Shown: positions 1 through 37,833 of the stretch, piece after piece
How the letters are laid out: every line of letters starts with the position of its first letter
How positions within the stretch are numbered: the stretch's first letter is position 1
Source of the DNA: Octopus sinensis
Lineage: Eukaryota
NCBI RefSeq assembly: GCF_006345805.1
Contig: NC_043006.1
Span: forward strand, 74,958,001-75,022,000
DNA length: 64,000 nucleotides
Direction: 5' to 3'
Made by a program: the position numbers

Positions 1-2350
1 TGCATACGCCTTGTAGGTGTAGCTATATTTGCTATGTACTGTGTGACAAATCATACGCTTAATTTACAAGCGTGAAACTTCAAGTAACATTGGAGTGAAT
101 ATCAACAGTTTAGGAATATATACTTCTATACCAATATGTGTGTGTGTATATGTGTTTGTGCGTGTATGTGTGTGTGTGTGTGTATGTGTTTGTGCGTGTA
201 TGTGTGTGTGTGTGTGTGTTCCCATATATATTAATATTTTGTTTCACCTTACATTATTACAGGTTTCGTTGGTGTAGGATAAATCCACGTCATCAGATAT
301 TCAGGGCCATACATACATATATACGTATACACATATACATATATACAAATACATACATGCATACCTACACACATGCATACATACATACATACATACATCA
401 TACATACATACATACATACATACATACATACATACATACACACACACATACATATATACTTATATATTATTTGATAAACACAAAATATAAAGTAAAGGTA
501 ATTTGCCAACATAATGTGGCTATCTTGGAAAAGATGTTGTTACTGTTCATTATCCCCAGAAACATCGTTTCTAGCTAGCTATACGACACAATATCTGTAT
601 CCTTATATTTTCGAACAGGGCATTCATTATGTTGGTAAATAGTCATTGCTTTAAAGAACCGCTACTAAATATCTCTCTTTGAGAGATTTAGAAATAACAA
701 AATATAAAGATATACATGTATGCATGCACATCTGTACGTCTGTGTGAGTGTGTATATGTACAGACATACACGCATATACATGTATATATACATATATGTA
801 TATATATATATGCATGTATAACTTATAAAATAAGGGCAAAAGAAAAATTCTAATGCCAAATATGCCGAAAAAAAGACACCATTGTCAATAACCATTATAA
901 TTTATGCGTGACGAAACATGCCGATAGAAATTTCTAAAAACCGTTTATAACCGTATGGTCCCATTTCGGGGTTAATTCATAAAATTTTCCTCTCGTCAGC
1001 GATTATACGTAAGACATAAATGGAACTTACTCATACCCATGGAAAAAGCAAGCACTAGGTCCTGAGTAGACCTAAGTACCCCAAATCTATCCCAATAGAA
1101 AATCTTCACCACATTTCGGCGAGACCGTTCGATTCGATCTAGAAATTTGCATGTTGTATATATATATATATATACCAACAATTGAGGTAAAATTAATTAA
1201 TTATTAATCAATTTCACCAAGTATTCAGTATGCAAAGGGACCATTTAATAAGCGATTCAAATATTACATTAATAAAAGGGCTTAGTAAAATAATTACTTT
1301 GCGCATACTGAACTCATTAGAAATATAGCTAAAAAAAAAAACTTTTTTTAACTATTTCTAATACTTAAAGAAAACCCTCTCATATGTGTTTGCTCAATTC
1401 AACTCACGAAGTATGGGGAAAGACATTAAAAAATCAAATGCAAAGGTTTATTTGAGACGTACGTTTCAAGATAGTCAACTCGACATTTCTATCATCAGCT
1501 CAGAACTCCTTGTTTGGATTTGACAACACGAAAGTGGAGCATACCCTTTCGGCTTCTTTATCGCTTCTTCTGAAATCTGCTCGAAACTAACAGTGCCAGC
1601 AAACTCAATATGCAAGCGAAGAATTTCTGCTCTCCCCTTTCCACCAGCGTGGTTTAAAATCATTAAACACTATGCTTTTTTCGGTTAAAATCCGAGGCAT
1701 TAAATAGAGAGAGATGAATTATATTTCAACAATTGAGGGTAAAATTATTAATTATTAATCAAATTCACCAAGTATTCAGTATGCAAAGGGACCATTTTAA
1801 GGCGAATGCAAATATTACATTATATAAAGGGCTTAGTAAAATAAATTACTTTGCCGCATACTGAACTCATTAGAAATAGTAGCTAAAAAAAACTTTTTAA
1901 AACTATTTATGCCCCTCGGATTTTAACCGAAAAAGCATAGTGTTTACTGATTTTAACCCACGCTGGTGGAAAGGGGAGAGCAGAAATCTTCGTTGCATAT
2001 TTGAGTTTGCGGCACTGTTAGTTTCGAGCAGATCTTCAGAAGCGATAAGAAGCCGAAAGGGATGCTCCCACTTTCAGGGTTTTCAAATCCCACACGTATT
2101 CTGAGCTGAATGAAAATGTGCGAGTTGACTAATCTTGAAACGTATCGTTCTCAAATACCTTTGCATTTGATTTTTTAATGTCTTTACCCCCATGCTTTCG
2201 TGAGTTGAATTGAGCAAACACTATAATGAGAGAGGTTTTCTTTAAGTATTAGAAATAGTTTTAAAAAGTTTTTTTTTAGCTACTATTTCTAATGAGTCAG
2301 TATGCGGCAAAGTAATTTATTTTACTAAGCCCTTTTATATAATATTATAT

Positions 2351-2409
<59 letters not shown>

Positions 2410-2979
2410 TGTATGTATGTATTTATTAATGTATGTATTATCTATGTATGTATGTATGTATGTATCTATCTATCTATCTTCTATCTATCTATCTATCTAT
2501 CTATCTCTCTATCTATCTATATATATATATATATATATATATACACCTATACATATAATATTTTTTCATATATGTACACTTATTTATGAGTGTGCATGAG
2601 TGTGTATGCGTGTGTTTAATACAAAAACAGTCTATATAATAGCAATACAAAATTTTCTATTATCATAAACCCAAACATATGCACAACAGAGACTACACTG
2701 ATGAGGCCAACGGCCAAAAACTTATGCTTATTTTGTTATGGATTAGATTTTGAATGGTTGTTCCAGTTGTTTAATGAACTTCATAAGACCTTGCAGCTCA
2801 TTACAGAACTGAACAACCACGCCAATAGTGAGATCTAATTATTTACACATACACACGTACATACATACATACATGCATACATATATACATGCATACACAC
2901 ACGGGGACACACGCTCATACGTATGTATGTATGTATATGTATGTATGTATGTATATATATTGTATGCACACACACACAC

Positions 2980-3015
<36 letters not shown>

Positions 3016-3216
3016 TGATATAAACGTGTAATTATATGTATTACACACCACGCACACAACACCCATGCACACACACACACACACATATCTATATATATAA
3101 TATATATATATATAATATATATATATATATAACGTGTATATATATGTATATACACACAAACACGCACACACAACACACACACACACACACATATATATAT
3201 ACAGAGGAAGAGAGAG

Positions 3217-3250
<34 letters not shown>

Positions 3251-4453
3251 GAGAGAGAGAGAAAGAGAGGCAGAATGAATTTCGAAGATTTTGCAGTCTT
3301 CTAATGAACAGTAGCTCCGCCGATGGTCATTAGAGAACTGAAATTTGTTTGTACACGCATGCATACACGATGATTGTTCCAATTTCACAGATAATTGCTG
3401 TTTCCTGATGCTTCCACGACGTCAATTACATTTCTTACTTTCCGTTTATGGTCGGCATTTCAAATCCGTTGCAGATCTGCGTGGTTTGTAGCATAGGTGA
3501 CAGAAGGATATAACTTACTGTGCGCTTCCAACTGGTTAGGTCTGCATATATTGTCATTCTTCCATCGTTAAAAGACTTTCGGTAGATGGAATGGTGAATA
3601 AAGGCAGCAAGCTGGCTGAACCGATAGCACGCCAGGCGGAATGCTTCGCGGTATTTCGTCTGCCTTTAACGTTCTGAGTTCAATTCTGCCGAGGTCGACT
3701 TTGCCTTTCATCCTTCGGGGTCGATTAAATAAGTACCATGTACGCACTTGGGGTCGATGTAATCGACTTAATCCTTTTGTCTGTCCTTGTTTTGCCTCTC
3801 TGTGTGCCCCTTGTGGTAGTAGAGAATTGGAATGGTGAATGAAGTTGCCCTAAAGAGACATCTGTACGTCTTTTGATTATGGTGATAAATGCTTGTAAAA
3901 GAAGAGTACCATTCTCTTAGTCACCGTGTTTAGTATCCAGTAACTAGCCAAAGCGAGATGTCGGTAATCACGTGAAACAGCAGGTTTTACATCAGAATGT
4001 TCCACTTTTGAAGAATACTGAGACAACAACTAGGGGTCCCTCACTCGCGGAGGTTTTCCTGCGCACCCTGACACCAACCAACGCCCCCGCGTTTTCATAC
4101 ATACATATGTGCATATGTTTCAGTTGTAAATGGATAACCCAGCAGCAGACTAGCCTTCCTATGAAGGGGAATGTTGGCCTACTCACCGAGCCAGCGGAGA
4201 GGCATCATTCAAAAGATAAATCGTTGCAAAGTGCGTTGCGACTAGCGATGTATAACAACGTCCGATAGTCTGACAGATTACGTAATATGCATATCTATAT
4301 ATATATTATTGTGTGCGTTTGTGTGTGTATACGTTTATTATGTGTGTGGTGTATACATATACATATATGTATATATGCATATATATATATATATATTATA
4401 ATTATACATACATACGTACATACATGCATATCGATACGTTTTTGTAAACATAT

Positions 4454-4499
<46 letters not shown>

Positions 4500-4510
4500 C
4501 GCACATATAT

Positions 4511-4554
<44 letters not shown>

Positions 4555-35712: not shown

Positions 35713-35752
<40 letters not shown>

Positions 35753-36652
35753 CAATTAAGGAACGGCCATAATAGGCCATTCACCCACTAGAAATAACAG
35801 CCAAAGCTTCTACCGCAAATAAAGATCAATTCCGTAAACAGGAGAAAATTAAAAAACATTTACCCTGTAATTTCTTGTACGGTATACCGTTTCATCCGTT
35901 GTTAATGGTAAACCAACCTAATTAAATTAAATCAAGCCAATCTTCCATAAGCCCTCGGATTCATCAGCAAGAAATAGCTCTCGGGACAGATAATTACACG
36001 AGGCATATCCAATCTTGCCAAGTCAATATCTGACCTAAAATTTTCAAATCGTCGCACTCGCGCCAAATTTATCGGCAGCAAATAAATATCAGCCGTCGAT
36101 TCCATTACGGAATTAACCTGGTGGCAATAAAATTCTACAAAATTTTCCTTGCCACCCTATATTGATTAATTATGAATTTTTTGGTTAATTCCGTAATGGA
36201 ATCGACGGCTGATATTTATTTGCTGCCGATAAATTTGGCGCGAGTGCGACGATTTGAAAATTTTAGGTCAGATATTGACTTGGCAAGATTGGATATGCCT
36301 CGTGTAATTATCTGTCCCGAGAGCTATTTCTTGCTGATGAATCCGAGGGCTTATGGAAGATTGGCTTGATTTAATTTAATTAGGTTGGTTTACCATTAAA
36401 CAACGGATGATAAACGGTATACCGTACAAGAAATTACAGGGTAAATGTTTTTTTAATTTTCTCCTGTTTACGGAATTGATTTATTTGCGGTAGAAGCTTT
36501 GGCTGTTTATTTCTAGTGGGTGAATGGCCTATTATGGCCGTTCCTTAATTGTTAATGTTGAACTTAAAAATGGTCTATGACTATTTTTTTTTTCCCGCTG
36601 GGCCGCTGGTGGCAATAAAATTCTACAAAATTTTCCTTGCCACCCTATATTG

Positions 36653-36689
<37 letters not shown>

Positions 36690-36690
36690 A

Positions 36691-36725
<35 letters not shown>

Positions 36726-36964
36726 ATATCTATATATATAATAATATATATATATATATTATATATAATATATATTGAGTAGTTGAATGAATTATCTTAT
36801 TAAGGATAATTCGAAAGATAACCGATACCTGGGTAGCAAATTCACATCAGGAAGAACGCGGTTGAAGTTACGTCCCTAGGGCATAGACTACGTGATGCAG
36901 CCTTCGAAACATATGTCGAAAATAAAGGAAATTTGTTAACAAGTCGTTCAACTCTATTCTTTCA

Positions 36965-36999
<35 letters not shown>

Positions 37000-37784
37000 A
37001 GTACAATGTGAGATAGGGGTTATGAGTGTAACCCACTATGGGATATCAGTTATCCAATATACTGCTGGTGAAGCACCCAAAAGGCAAATACATAAATGCT
37101 TATAATTGCAATGCAATTAATTCATTTATTGTATTAGATCGGCGAAGGTAAAATATTTTACCTCAAATTCATAATACAAATAAGAAAATGGAGGTACAGA
37201 ATCATTTCAGTCATCGACTTACAGATATTACCAATTCATATTATCTATTAACTACATAAATAGGAACATCCAAATCCAACAAAATAAAACAATATACATC
37301 AATAAGTAAGATAATACCATAAAAATAATACACATAAAATGGACCTTACAGCTGTTTCAGCCTGTAGATAAGGTATCTCATTCTGTCTATATTAGTCAGA
37401 TGTATTGAGGTAATATGCAGTTAAAAATGAGTTACAAGGCCTCGTCAGAGATTATAAAGTACAATTATAAAAATATATTTTTTTATATATTTTTATAATT
37501 GACGATGTCTTGAGATACGTATATGAGTAACTCATTTTTAACTGCATATTACCTCAATACATCTGACTAATATAGGCAGAATGAGATACCTTTATCTACA
37601 GGCTGAAACAGCTGTAAGATCCATCTTATGTGTATTATTTTTATGATATTATCTTACTTATTGATGTATATTGTTTTATTTTGTTGGATTTGGATGTTCC
37701 TATTTATGTAGTTAATAAATAATATGAATTGGTAATATCTGTAAGTCGATGATTGAAATGAATCTGTTCCTCCATTTTCTTATT

Positions 37785-37833
<49 letters not shown>

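What the first reader, a model, noticed from the sequence alone, without database searches (positions are those of the whole stretch)
253..37787. Several unrelated hammerhead-bearing islands share TA-microsatellite targets and one architecture
Hammerhead or hammerhead-like motifs occur at 253-302, 946-1007, 1449-1505/2096-2158, 34627-34663, 35870-35975/36326-36434 and 37343-37453. The islands show no obvious sequence similarity to each other, but all lie between TA-rich microsatellites. In three (1177-2340, 35749-36659, 37000-37787) the main unit carries the ribozyme in sense and an inverted copy lies 5' of it. This suggests a diverse, microsatellite-associated system of small ribozyme retroelements. 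The Penelope-like machinery seen at 46943-47380 is a candidate mobiliser (inference).
Basis: partly seen in the sequence, partly recalled or inferred. Interest (0 to 1): 0.85.

Follow-up and report, generated by a model that had tools for sequence, protein, structure and literature searches.

The report
Hammerhead-bearing Penelope-like insertions in microsatellites
Several short retroelement copies carrying hammerhead ribozyme motifs sit inside TA microsatellites in a head-to-head layout, which is a real pattern but is already the known signature of Penelope-like retrotransposons.

Summary
Three of the six listed loci hold a complete hammerhead core with a palindromic helix III: 1498-1456, 35975-35870 and 37452-37343, all on the minus strand. 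I found a fourth, unlisted, at 25598-25510 (-). Such motifs are far above chance: 3 strict hits against 0.043 expected, with 0 of 300 shuffles reaching 3. The core-plus-palindrome test gave 5 hits (one an (AT)n artefact) against 0.06 expected. Three listed motifs (253-302, 946-1007, 34627-34663) fail every descriptor. No Rfam match reaches the gathering score; the best are 20.5 and 18.2 bits against 34.

The three islands are mutually unrelated in sequence. They share one layout: main copy, inverted copy at its 5' side lacking the last 90-176 nt, and in two islands a partial tandem 3' piece. All ends abut (TA)n. Published work describes exactly this for Penelope-like elements: 5' truncation, pseudo-LTR partial tandems, an inverted 5' copy, a one-sided tail, hammerheads in sense, and (TA)n or AT-rich targets.

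So these are ordinary Penelope-type insertions, either truncated tails or short non-autonomous derivatives. They are not a new system. The putative endonuclease remnant at 46967-47446 (-) has an in-frame stop and no reverse transcriptase, so it cannot be the mobiliser.

The parts
1157..1174 (.). (TA)9 tract abutting the 3' end of the island 2 main copy
1176..1707 (-). Island 2 main copy (about 530 nt). Its 3' end is at 1176.
   Evidence: self-BLAST; alignments
1456..1498 (-). Hammerhead core of island 2: CUGAUGA, GAAA, palindromic helix III ACGUACGU, C17 at 1456. Helices I and II are weak.
   Evidence: fails the helix tests; minimum-energy fold is not a hammerhead
1727..1908 (-). Partial tandem copy holding only the last 182 nt of the island 2 unit (pseudo-LTR-like). 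No hammerhead.
   Evidence: 171 of 189 columns identical
1903..2343 (+). Inverted copy of island 2. It shares the 5' end of the main copy and lacks its last ~90 nt. Its hammerhead (2096-2158) carries small insertions in the core.
   Evidence: 410 of 461 columns identical; 10 substitutions, 33 indel events
25510..25598 (-). Fourth hammerhead, not in the finding: helix I 6 bp, CUGAGGA, helix II 4 bp plus rod, palindrome ACGAUCGU, GUA. It ends ~35 nt before a (TA)4(TG)n tract at 25379-25479. No inverted partner.
   Evidence: Rfam Hammerhead_1 18.2 bits (gathering 34), E 0.095 in a 331-nt search
35748..36117 (-). Island 4 inverted copy, ending at (TA)n. It lacks the last 102 nt of the main copy.
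35870..35975 (-). Best hammerhead of the window (island 4, left arm), cleavage after A at 35878
   Evidence: (z -4.37); Rfam Hammerhead_1 20.5 bits (gathering 34), E 0.0065 in a 131-nt search
36118..36170 (+). 53-nt copy of the 3' terminus of the island 4 main copy, lying between the two arms (minimal partial tandem or 'tail')
   Evidence: 100% identical to 36606-36658
36171..36658 (+). Island 4 main copy (488 nt). Its hammerhead at 36326-36434 has 2 extra bases in the GAAA box. Its 3' end abuts (TA)n.
37000..37480 (-). Island 5 main copy. Its 3' end at 37000 abuts (TA)n.
37343..37452 (-). Hammerhead of island 5: helix I 4 bp, CUGACGA, helix II 5 bp plus rod, palindrome ACAGCUGU, GUA
   Evidence: minimum-energy fold is not a hammerhead
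37481..37787 (+). Island 5 inverted copy. It lacks the last 176 nt of the main copy, and a 25-nt block replaces the 5' part of the hammerhead. It ends at (TG)4(TA)n.
46967..47446 (-). Remnant of a probable GIY-YIG endonuclease reading frame (160 codons, one in-frame TGA at 47198-47200). It is cut at its 5' side by a (TACA)n microsatellite and has no reverse transcriptase.
   Evidence: Atlas 0.96 to clusters with GIY-YIG on 10% of members; Pfam nothing; AF2 pLDDT 43

Best explanation
WHAT THEY ARE. The islands are products of Penelope-like element (PLE) retrotransposition into (TA)n microsatellites. Each is a short (0.43-0.53 kb) non-coding copy of a different family and carries a PLE-type type I hammerhead in sense.

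MECHANISM (inferred from the layout together with published biochemistry). A PLE reverse transcriptase/GIY-YIG endonuclease complex nicks both strands of AT-rich DNA. Each 3'-OH primes cDNA synthesis on element RNA, starting at internal sites that differ between the two strands. This leaves one arm 90-176 nt longer (the 'tail'). Both cDNAs run to the same RNA 5' end. A template jump to a second RNA sometimes adds a partial tandem 3' piece. The two cDNAs are then joined head to head.

ROLE OF THE HAMMERHEAD. It is a passenger or processing signal of the element RNA. It probably acts as a dimer through its palindromic helix III and with protein help. It is not the cause of integration.

WHAT IS SHOWN AND WHAT IS INFERRED. 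Shown here: the motifs, the layout and the flanks. Inferred: all enzymatic steps. Open: whether the copies are 5'-truncated tails of autonomous PLEs or full-length short non-autonomous derivatives.
For: MOTIFS. Four hammerhead cores with palindromic helix III are present, far above chance. The island 4 motif folds as a hammerhead on its own. It is also predicted to form a 12-bp intermolecular helix III in a homodimer (-76.2 against 2 x -31.6 kcal/mol).

LAYOUT. The layout in 3 of 3 islands is an inverted copy at the 5' side sharing the main copy's 5' end, with a one-sided 3' extension of ~90, 102 and 176 nt. Partial tandem pieces of 182 and 53 nt occur in 2 of 3 islands. In each arm the hammerhead is in sense, with the arm's 3' end pointing outward to the microsatellite.

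FLANKS. 7 of 7 ends lie within 10 bp of (TA)>=4, against 7.1% background.

LITERATURE. PMC8557442 (passages read) reports heavy 5' truncation, partial tandems forming pLTRs, an inverted 5'-truncated copy, a 30-40-bp tail at one end, hammerheads within pLTRs, and (TA)n as preferred targets. PMC4209133 (parts 1-2 of 4 read) reports palindromic helix III and loop 3, dimeric action, dual motifs 100-700 bp apart on opposite strands, and most motifs being single and probably truncated PLEs. PMC11167929 (main text read) reports that purified PLE protein cleaves and extends both strands, prefers AT-rich DNA, initiates internally (which explains the tail), and that the hammerhead is protein-assisted and dispensable for insertion in vitro.

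PLE IN THIS GENOME. A probable PLE endonuclease remnant lies in the same window.
Against: No island contains a reverse transcriptase or endonuclease reading frame. No full-length PLE with these termini is in the window. Membership in the PLE class therefore rests on architecture alone.

Rfam hammerhead models do not reach gathering score anywhere. They missed islands 2, 4 and 5 at E<=10 in kilobase-scale searches.

Two of four motifs do not fold as hammerheads at minimum energy, and island 2 lacks a credible helix I.

The published PLE min-hammerhead traits 'G10.1-C11.1' and 'unpaired base after A9' are not met by the four motifs. Their first helix II pairs are A-U, G.U, G.U and U.U.

The one-sided extension is 90-176 nt, not the published 30-40 bp.

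Differences between arms are mostly 1-3-nt indels: 33 indel events against 10 substitutions in island 2, and 5 against 0 in island 4. This may be assembly noise, so which copy is 'intact' is uncertain.

Pfam does not recognise the endonuclease remnant.
Confidence: 0.8

Rival explanations
1. The units are full-length, short, non-autonomous elements with a defined 5' end (SINE-like or retrozyme-monomer-like derivatives of PLE pseudo-LTRs). They would be mobilised in trans by PLEs, rather than being randomly 5'-truncated tails of autonomous PLEs. This is a refinement of the best explanation, not its negation.
For: In islands 2 and 4 the main and inverted copies start at the same unit position, within about 0-16 nt. 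Two independent random truncations would rarely do this. No coding remnant lies upstream of the hammerheads: no frame of 90 aa or more falls within the islands apart from microsatellite read-through. The bioRxiv preprint 10.64898/2026.07.22.740005 (abstract and part 1 of Results read) reports that retrozyme consensus lengths are 51-972 bp, that monomers are dispersed, and that sequences are related to PLE pLTRs.
Against: A snap-back copy of one cDNA, or two cDNAs made on the same truncated RNA, would also give identical 5' ends. Only one locus per family is visible. No direct tandem with two sense hammerheads is present, so the circular-RNA route that defines retrozymes is not available from these loci.
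Confidence: 0.4
2. The islands are foldback or MITE-type DNA transposons that insert at TA and merely happen to contain hammerhead-like strings.
For: Islands 4 and 5 are long palindromes flanked by TA repeats. A mariner-like DNA transposon also sits in a (TA)n tract at 34838-35716, so (TA)n tracts take up DNA transposons too.
Against: The termini are not inverted repeats of each other. One arm always carries 90-176 extra nt. Islands 2 and 4 contain a direct partial copy of the 3' end between the arms, which cut-and-paste does not produce. Four complete hammerhead cores with palindromic helix III are not expected by chance.
Confidence: 0.05
3. The (TA)n tracts are not pre-existing targets. They would be made during integration, for example by slippage of the telomerase-related reverse transcriptase at each primed end.
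For: Under two-sided priming both outer ends are cDNA starts, so element-made tails would also appear on both sides. The flank data cannot separate the two readings.
Against: The window holds 131 (TA)>=4 tracts, most without any element. An unrelated DNA transposon lies in one of them. Published work reads the association as target bias and shows AT-rich cleavage in vitro (PMC8557442, PMC11167929).
Confidence: 0.1
4. The motifs and palindromes are chance or assembly artefacts.
For: No Rfam hit reaches gathering score. Arm differences are indel-dominated, which suggests a noisy consensus.
Against: Shuffle controls: 0 of 300 reach the observed counts. Three unrelated sequences share the same asymmetric layout. 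The island 4 fold has z -4.37.
Confidence: 0.03

Closest known systems
Endonuclease-positive Penelope-like elements (Penelope/Poseidon, Neptune and related clades): insertion architecture
   Same: 5' truncation, a partial tandem (pseudo-LTR), an inverted 5'-truncated copy at the 5' side, an extension at one end only, a sense hammerhead near the 3' region, and insertion into (TA)n or AT-rich DNA (PMC8557442, PMC11167929).
   Different: No reverse transcriptase or endonuclease frame is present in any island. The one-sided extension is 90-176 nt rather than 30-40 bp. The clade is unknown.
PLE minimal type I hammerheads (Cervera and de la Pena 2014, PMC4209133)
   Same: Type I topology, the CUGANGA and GAAA boxes, a short palindromic helix III that implies dimeric action, and motifs found singly or as pairs on opposite strands a few hundred bp apart.
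   Different: Helix II carries a 24-83-nt segment instead of 6-8 bp with a small loop. The first helix II pair is not G-C. The conserved unpaired base after A9 is absent. It is present only in the separate half-core at 46053/46233.
Metazoan non-LTR retrozymes (PMC7229834; bioRxiv 10.64898/2026.07.22.740005)
   Same: Small non-coding units of a few hundred nt with a type I hammerhead. They are thought to depend on PLEs, and dispersed monomers exist.
   Different: No head-to-tail tandem with a hammerhead per unit is present, so double cleavage and circular RNA cannot arise from these loci.
LINE-1 twin priming (recalled, no paper read)
   Same: Two-sided priming gives an inverted 5' segment joined to a direct 3' segment.
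   Different: Here the two arms copy the same region of the element rather than adjacent regions. This requires two templates or a snap-back.

Membership tests
Hammerhead ribozyme, type I | Conserved core: CUGANGA, GAAA, and U followed by a non-G at the cleavage site | tested here: met
   Met at 1498, 25592, 35967 and 37448 (all minus strand). Not met at 253-302 (G at position 17) or 34627-34663 (no CUGANGA).
Hammerhead ribozyme, type I | Three helices around the core (contiguous pairs from the junction) | tested here: inconclusive
   Met by 3 of the 4 core-complete motifs. Island 2 fails helices I and II. Only the island 4 motif is the minimum-energy fold.
Hammerhead ribozyme, type I | Rfam RF00163 gathering score (34 bits) | tested here: not met
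   None in the window. Best scores are 20.5 bits and 18.2 bits, in tiny targeted searches. Both are full-length model matches penalised by 50-nt-plus insertions in helix II.
Hammerhead ribozyme, type I | Self-cleavage | not testable with these tools
   Needs in vitro transcription or RNA end mapping.
PLE minimal hammerhead (PMC4209133) | Palindromic positions 15.2-16.2 and loop 3 | tested here: met
   4 of 4: ACGUACGU, ACGAUCGU, ACGGUAUACCGU, ACAGCUGU.
PLE minimal hammerhead (PMC4209133) | G10.1-C11.1 pair and an unpaired base between positions 9 and 10.1 | tested here: not met
   0 of 4. The first pairs are U.U, G.U, A-U and G.U. The half-core at 46053/46233 does show both features.
Penelope-like element insertion | Reverse transcriptase plus GIY-YIG endonuclease reading frame in the element | tested here: not met
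   No frame of 90 aa or more lies inside the islands other than microsatellite read-through. The copies are therefore at most truncated or non-autonomous.
Penelope-like element insertion | Partial tandem (pseudo-LTR), inverted 5'-truncated copy, and a one-sided tail | tested here: met
   Inverted copy and one-sided extension in 3 of 3 islands. Partial tandem in 2 of 3. The extension is longer than the published 30-40 bp.
Penelope-like element insertion | AT-rich or (TA)n target preference | tested here: met
   7 of 7 ends are within 10 bp of (TA)>=4, against 7.1% of positions. n = 4 elements, three of them within one 2-kb TA-rich stretch.
Metazoan non-LTR retrozyme | Head-to-tail repeats, each with a sense hammerhead, allowing excision of a unit-length RNA | tested here: not met
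   The only direct repeats (1727-1908 and 36118-36170) lack the hammerhead.
GIY-YIG endonuclease (remnant at 46967-47446) | Recognisable GIY-YIG domain | tested here: inconclusive
   Pfam found nothing at E<=10 except an unrelated 0.1 hit. PDB by sequence found nothing relevant. Atlas gave 0.96 with 194 of 256 shared features to a cluster with GIY-YIG on 10% of members. The second half scored 0.96 to unnamed clusters and 0.90 to one with GIY-YIG on 17% of members. The AF2 model has pLDDT 43, with only a strand-strand-helix at residues 50-80 confident.

The most novel reading that the evidence does not exclude
The palindromic helix III may do more than regulate cleavage. By pairing two element RNAs into a hammerhead dimer, it could deliver two templates to a dimeric PLE enzyme that nicks both strands. 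Head-to-head double insertions with a common 5' end would then be the direct footprint of an RNA dimer.

On this reading the islands are full-length copies of several unrelated short non-autonomous families. Each would have kept only a hammerhead with a long helix II rod and a short 3' priming site (an AATTGTT-like terminus is shared by islands 2 and 4).

Nothing here tests this beyond three points: the shared 5' ends, the palindromes, and a predicted 12-bp intermolecular helix III for island 4.
Probability: 0.07. Interest if true: 0.6.

Novelty: new member of a known kind. Interest (0 to 1): 0.2.

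Why it matters
As it stands this is annotation. It tells a curator that these TA-flanked palindromic islands are Penelope-type insertions, not foldback transposons or microRNA-like hairpins. It also shows that standard Rfam screening misses their hammerheads because of long helix II insertions.

The loci are clean natural examples of the two-sided, internally initiated integration that was shown in vitro only in 2024. 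The shared 5' ends of the two arms, the one-sided 90-176-nt extensions and a 6-nt junction overlap are the kind of footprints that could constrain that mechanism if collected genome-wide.

Tried and rejected
RFAM. Nothing reached gathering score in the whole window. The whole-window E<=10 run gave 297 matches. The 150 shown are almost all microsatellite look-alikes of microRNA families and none is a hammerhead; the other 147 were not displayed. No hammerhead appeared at E<=10 in 200-2400, 35745-37790, 45990-46300 or 34576-34806. Only two very small targeted searches gave sub-threshold Hammerhead_1 matches. These are post hoc, and their E-values refer to 331 and 131 nt only.

LISTED MOTIFS THAT FAILED. 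253-302, 946-1007 and 34627-34663 were inspected by hand and by three descriptor settings. I rejected them as hammerheads. They could be decayed relics, but nothing supports that.

SIMILARITY BETWEEN ISLANDS. Cross-similarity was sought with word sizes 11 and 7. Only short matches with E>=0.01 turned up.

ENDONUCLEASE REMNANT. Pfam on the two pieces and on the X-joined frame found nothing. PDB by sequence gave only an irrelevant hit at E 1.7. The single-sequence AlphaFold model was too poor (pLDDT 43) to justify a fold search, so none was run.

OTHER NEGATIVES. ARAGORN found no tRNA in the window, so the tRNA-like look of 46895-46960 is unconfirmed.

NOT CHECKED. The genome-contig collection (bacteria and archaea) was not used, being irrelevant to an animal repeat. 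Complex prediction was not used. Supplementary files of the cited papers, which hold hammerhead alignments and element consensus files that might contain these families, were not available.

Full report
WHAT IS IN THE SEQUENCE

The window is AT-rich (31-45% G+C in 2-kb bins). It is crowded with microsatellites: 131 tracts of (TA)>=4 cover 4.5% of it. I scanned both strands with a type I hammerhead descriptor of my own. It requires at least 4 contiguous pairs in helix I, then CUGANGA, at least 3 pairs in helix II, GAAA, a helix III hairpin closed by A-U, and a non-G base at the cleavage site.

- 3 of the 34 CUGANGA sites pass: 37452-37343, 35975-35870 and 25598-25510, all on the minus strand.
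- Dinucleotide-preserving shuffles give a mean of 0.043 hits. 0 of 300 shuffles reach 3 and 13 of 300 reach 1.
- A second, independent test ignores helices I and II. It asks only that GAAA be followed by a perfect palindrome of 8 nt or more starting at A15.1, then a non-G base. It finds 5 sites against 0.06 expected (0 of 300 reach 5).
- One of those 5 is an (AT)n artefact at 22828. The other four are the three above plus 1498-1456 (-).

Hammerhead motifs are really there.

QUALITY OF EACH MOTIF

- Island 4, left arm (35975-35870, -). This is the best. It has an 8-bp helix I, a 5-bp base of helix II carrying a long rod, and a 4-bp helix III. The unconstrained minimum-energy fold is exactly the hammerhead junction (z -4.37, 0 of 200 shuffles as stable). 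As a homodimer it is predicted to form a 12-bp intermolecular helix III.
- 25598-25510. The fold recovers helices I and II, but the energy is not unusual (z 0.12).
- 37452-37343. It passes the descriptor, but its minimum-energy fold is a different structure (z -1.58).
- 1498-1456. It has a perfect core and the palindrome ACGUACGU. Helix I is a single wobble pair and helix II opens with U.U, so it fails even the loosest helix setting.
- Rfam. Nothing in the window reaches a gathering score. Kilobase-scale searches at E<=10 did not list any hammerhead. Only 331-nt and 131-nt targeted searches returned Hammerhead_1, with full-length model matches of 18.2 and 20.5 bits against a gathering score of 34. 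The alignments show why: 50 or more inserted bases in helix II.
- Failed calls. The listed motifs at 253-302, 946-1007 and 34627-34663 do not pass any test. I reject them.

ARCHITECTURE

Self-comparison and alignments show one layout in three mutually unrelated sequences. Cross-matches between islands are only 10-16 nt with E>=0.01.

- Island 2. Main copy 1707-1176 (-). To its 5' side lies a direct partial copy of its last 182 nt (1908-1727). Beyond that lies an inverted copy (1903-2343, +). The inverted copy starts at the same unit position as the main copy and lacks its last ~90 nt.
- Island 4. Inverted copy 36117-35748 (-). Then a 53-nt direct copy of the 3' terminus (36118-36170, 100% identical to 36606-36658). 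Then the main copy 36171-36658 (+). The inverted copy lacks the last 102 nt.
- Island 5. Main copy 37480-37000 (-) and inverted copy 37481-37787 (+), which lacks the last 176 nt.
- In every arm the hammerhead is in sense, and the arm's 3' end points outward to the microsatellite.
- 7 of 7 outer ends of the four hammerhead elements lie 0-10 bp from a (TA)>=4 tract, against 7.1% of window positions. Three of the four elements lie in one TA-rich stretch, so they are not fully independent.

WHAT IT IS

Each of these features is a published hallmark of Penelope-like elements.

- Craig et al. 2021 (PMC8557442, passages read) describe heavy 5' truncation, partial tandems that form pseudo-LTRs, an inverted 5'-truncated copy adjacent at the 5' end, a 30-40-bp tail at one end only, hammerheads within pseudo-LTRs, and (TA)n as preferred targets.
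- Cervera and de la Pena 2014 (PMC4209133, parts 1-2 of 4 read) describe PLE hammerheads with a short palindromic helix III that should act as dimers. They found them mostly as single motifs 'probably related to truncated PLEs', and sometimes as pairs 100-700 bp apart on opposite strands. That is what islands 2, 4 and 5 are.
- Frangieh et al. 2024 (PMC11167929, main text read) showed that a purified PLE protein nicks and extends both DNA strands and prefers AT-rich DNA. It starts reverse transcription at internal sites of the RNA, which explains the tail. The hammerhead is protein-assisted and not needed for insertion in vitro.

The most economical mechanism is therefore two-sided target-primed reverse transcription in a (TA)n tract. 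The two strands would start at different points. Synthesis on both would run to a common RNA 5' end, with an occasional template jump that adds the partial tandem piece. The two cDNAs would then be joined head to head. A 6-nt overlap at the island 2 junction (1903-1908) fits microhomology-assisted joining. A snap-back of a single cDNA remains possible. The perfectly identical 217-nt inner arms of island 4, separated by a 64-nt loop, would fit it.

WHAT STAYS OPEN

- No island has a reading frame. No full-length element is in the window. No genome or repeat library was available. I therefore cannot say whether these are truncated tails of autonomous elements or full-length short non-autonomous derivatives. 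The latter are now argued to be what animal 'retrozymes' are (bioRxiv 10.64898/2026.07.22.740005, abstract and part 1 of Results read).
- The shared 5' ends of main and inverted copies favour a defined RNA 5' end, but a snap-back would give the same result.
- The loci cannot make circular RNA, since no two sense hammerheads lie in tandem.
- Departures from the published pattern: the one-sided extension is 90-176 nt; helix II carries 24-83 nt; and the G10.1-C11.1 pair and the unpaired base after A9 are absent in all four motifs.

A CAVEAT ON 'INTACT' AGAINST 'BROKEN' COPIES

- The island 4 arms differ by 5 small indels and no substitution.
- The island 2 main and inverted copies differ by 33 indel events and 10 substitutions over 461 columns.
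- Island 5 differs by about 9 substitutions and 1 indel by my count.

Indel-dominated divergence is unusual for neutral decay and suggests consensus errors of the assembly. The lesions in the partner hammerheads (2096-2158, 36334 onward) may not be real.

THE CANDIDATE MOBILISER

On the minus strand, 47446-46967 reads as a 160-codon frame with one in-frame TGA.

- Pfam does not recognise it, nor does a PDB sequence search.
- The language-model Atlas places its first half at 0.96 next to eukaryotic clusters in which 10% of members carry GIY-YIG. Its second half scores 0.96 next to unnamed eukaryotic clusters.
- A single-sequence AlphaFold model is poor (pLDDT 43), with a confident strand-strand-helix only at residues 50-80.
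- From recall, the cysteine- and histidine-bearing motif around that hairpin looks like PLE endonucleases. This is a lead, not a test.

The frame is cut at its 5' side by a (TACA)n tract and has no reverse transcriptase. It is a dead fragment. If its endonuclease identity holds, it shows only that PLEs occur in this genome.

VERDICT

The motifs and the layout are real and non-random. The interpretation as a new, diverse ribozyme retroelement system is not needed: these are Penelope-type insertions of probably uncatalogued families. Interest is low. A genome-wide collection of such asymmetric head-to-head insertions could, however, inform the still poorly known PLE integration mechanism.

Noticed in passing
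window 25510-25598 (-), element about 25480-25750: A fourth well-formed PLE-type hammerhead that is not in the finding. It lies ~35 nt from a (TA)4(TG)n tract and has no inverted partner in the window. Its 5' boundary is undefined.
   Followed up: yes
window 46030-46105 and 46190-46262: A 75-nt inverted repeat. Both arms end exactly at the GAAA of a hammerhead-like half core: CUGAAGA, one unpaired G, then a 5-bp helix II closed by G-C. These are the two PLE min-hammerhead traits that the four full motifs lack. No helix III or cleavage site follows. Rfam finds no hammerhead there, only sub-threshold hairpin matches.
   Followed up: partly
window 36776-36963 (+), motif at 36906: Another short island between two (TA)n tracts. 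It contains GAAAC followed by a palindromic AUAU loop and GUC, like the 3' half of a PLE hammerhead, but no CUGANGA box upstream. It may be a decayed member.
   Followed up: partly
window 34838-35716 and 38150-38245: An element with terminal inverted repeats sits inside a (TA)n tract, and a second ~90-nt fragment of the same sequence lies inside another. By recall the short frame resembles the N-terminal part of a mariner transposase, but Pfam found nothing. This suggests that (TA)n tracts here also take up DNA transposons.
   Followed up: partly
islands 2 and 4; also 35110-35195 against 38150-38245: Differences between repeat copies are mostly 1-2-nt indels, often in short homopolymers: 33 indels against 10 substitutions, and 5 against 0. 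This hints at uncorrected long-read consensus errors in this assembly.
   Followed up: partly
window 1176-1190 (-), 35748-35762 (-), 36640-36658 (+), 37000-37012 (-): The 3' termini of otherwise unrelated units look alike. Island 2 main and the island 4 inverted arm both end in a CCU-N-AAUUGUU-type string. Two further ends have AUUG within 10 nt of the terminus. This may be a shared priming or recognition site. It is a post hoc observation on few ends.
   Followed up: no
window 1903-1908: A 6-nt overlap lies at the junction between the 5' end of the partial tandem copy and the 5' end of the inverted copy of island 2. It is compatible with microhomology-assisted joining or template switching.
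   Followed up: no
window 37455-37530: At the centre of island 5, a perfect 17-nt inverted repeat around TTTTT is flanked by two non-homologous blocks of 25-26 nt. One block holds the 5' part of the hammerhead. The long arms resume after them. I have no explanation for this.
   Followed up: no
window 54292-57407 (+) and 20390-21334 (+): Reading frames with RVT_1 (E 2.9e-16 and 2.3e-06) and zf-RVT matches on an A-rich strand. By recall this combination is typical of non-LTR (LINE-type) elements, so it is a second possible source of reverse transcriptase in the region. The clade was not determined.
   Followed up: partly
window 46600-46960 (-): Directly after the stop of the endonuclease remnant lies a stretch that looks tRNA-like by eye, followed by (ATT)n. 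It may be a SINE inserted into, or abutting, the PLE fragment. ARAGORN reports no tRNA in the window.
   Followed up: partly
whole window: Microsatellites give many sub-threshold Rfam 'microRNA' matches (mir-297, mir-3149, mir-466 and others, up to 70.8 bits against a gathering score of 90). The island palindromes also match plant MIR families below threshold. These are low-complexity or hairpin artefacts, not microRNA genes.
   Followed up: yes
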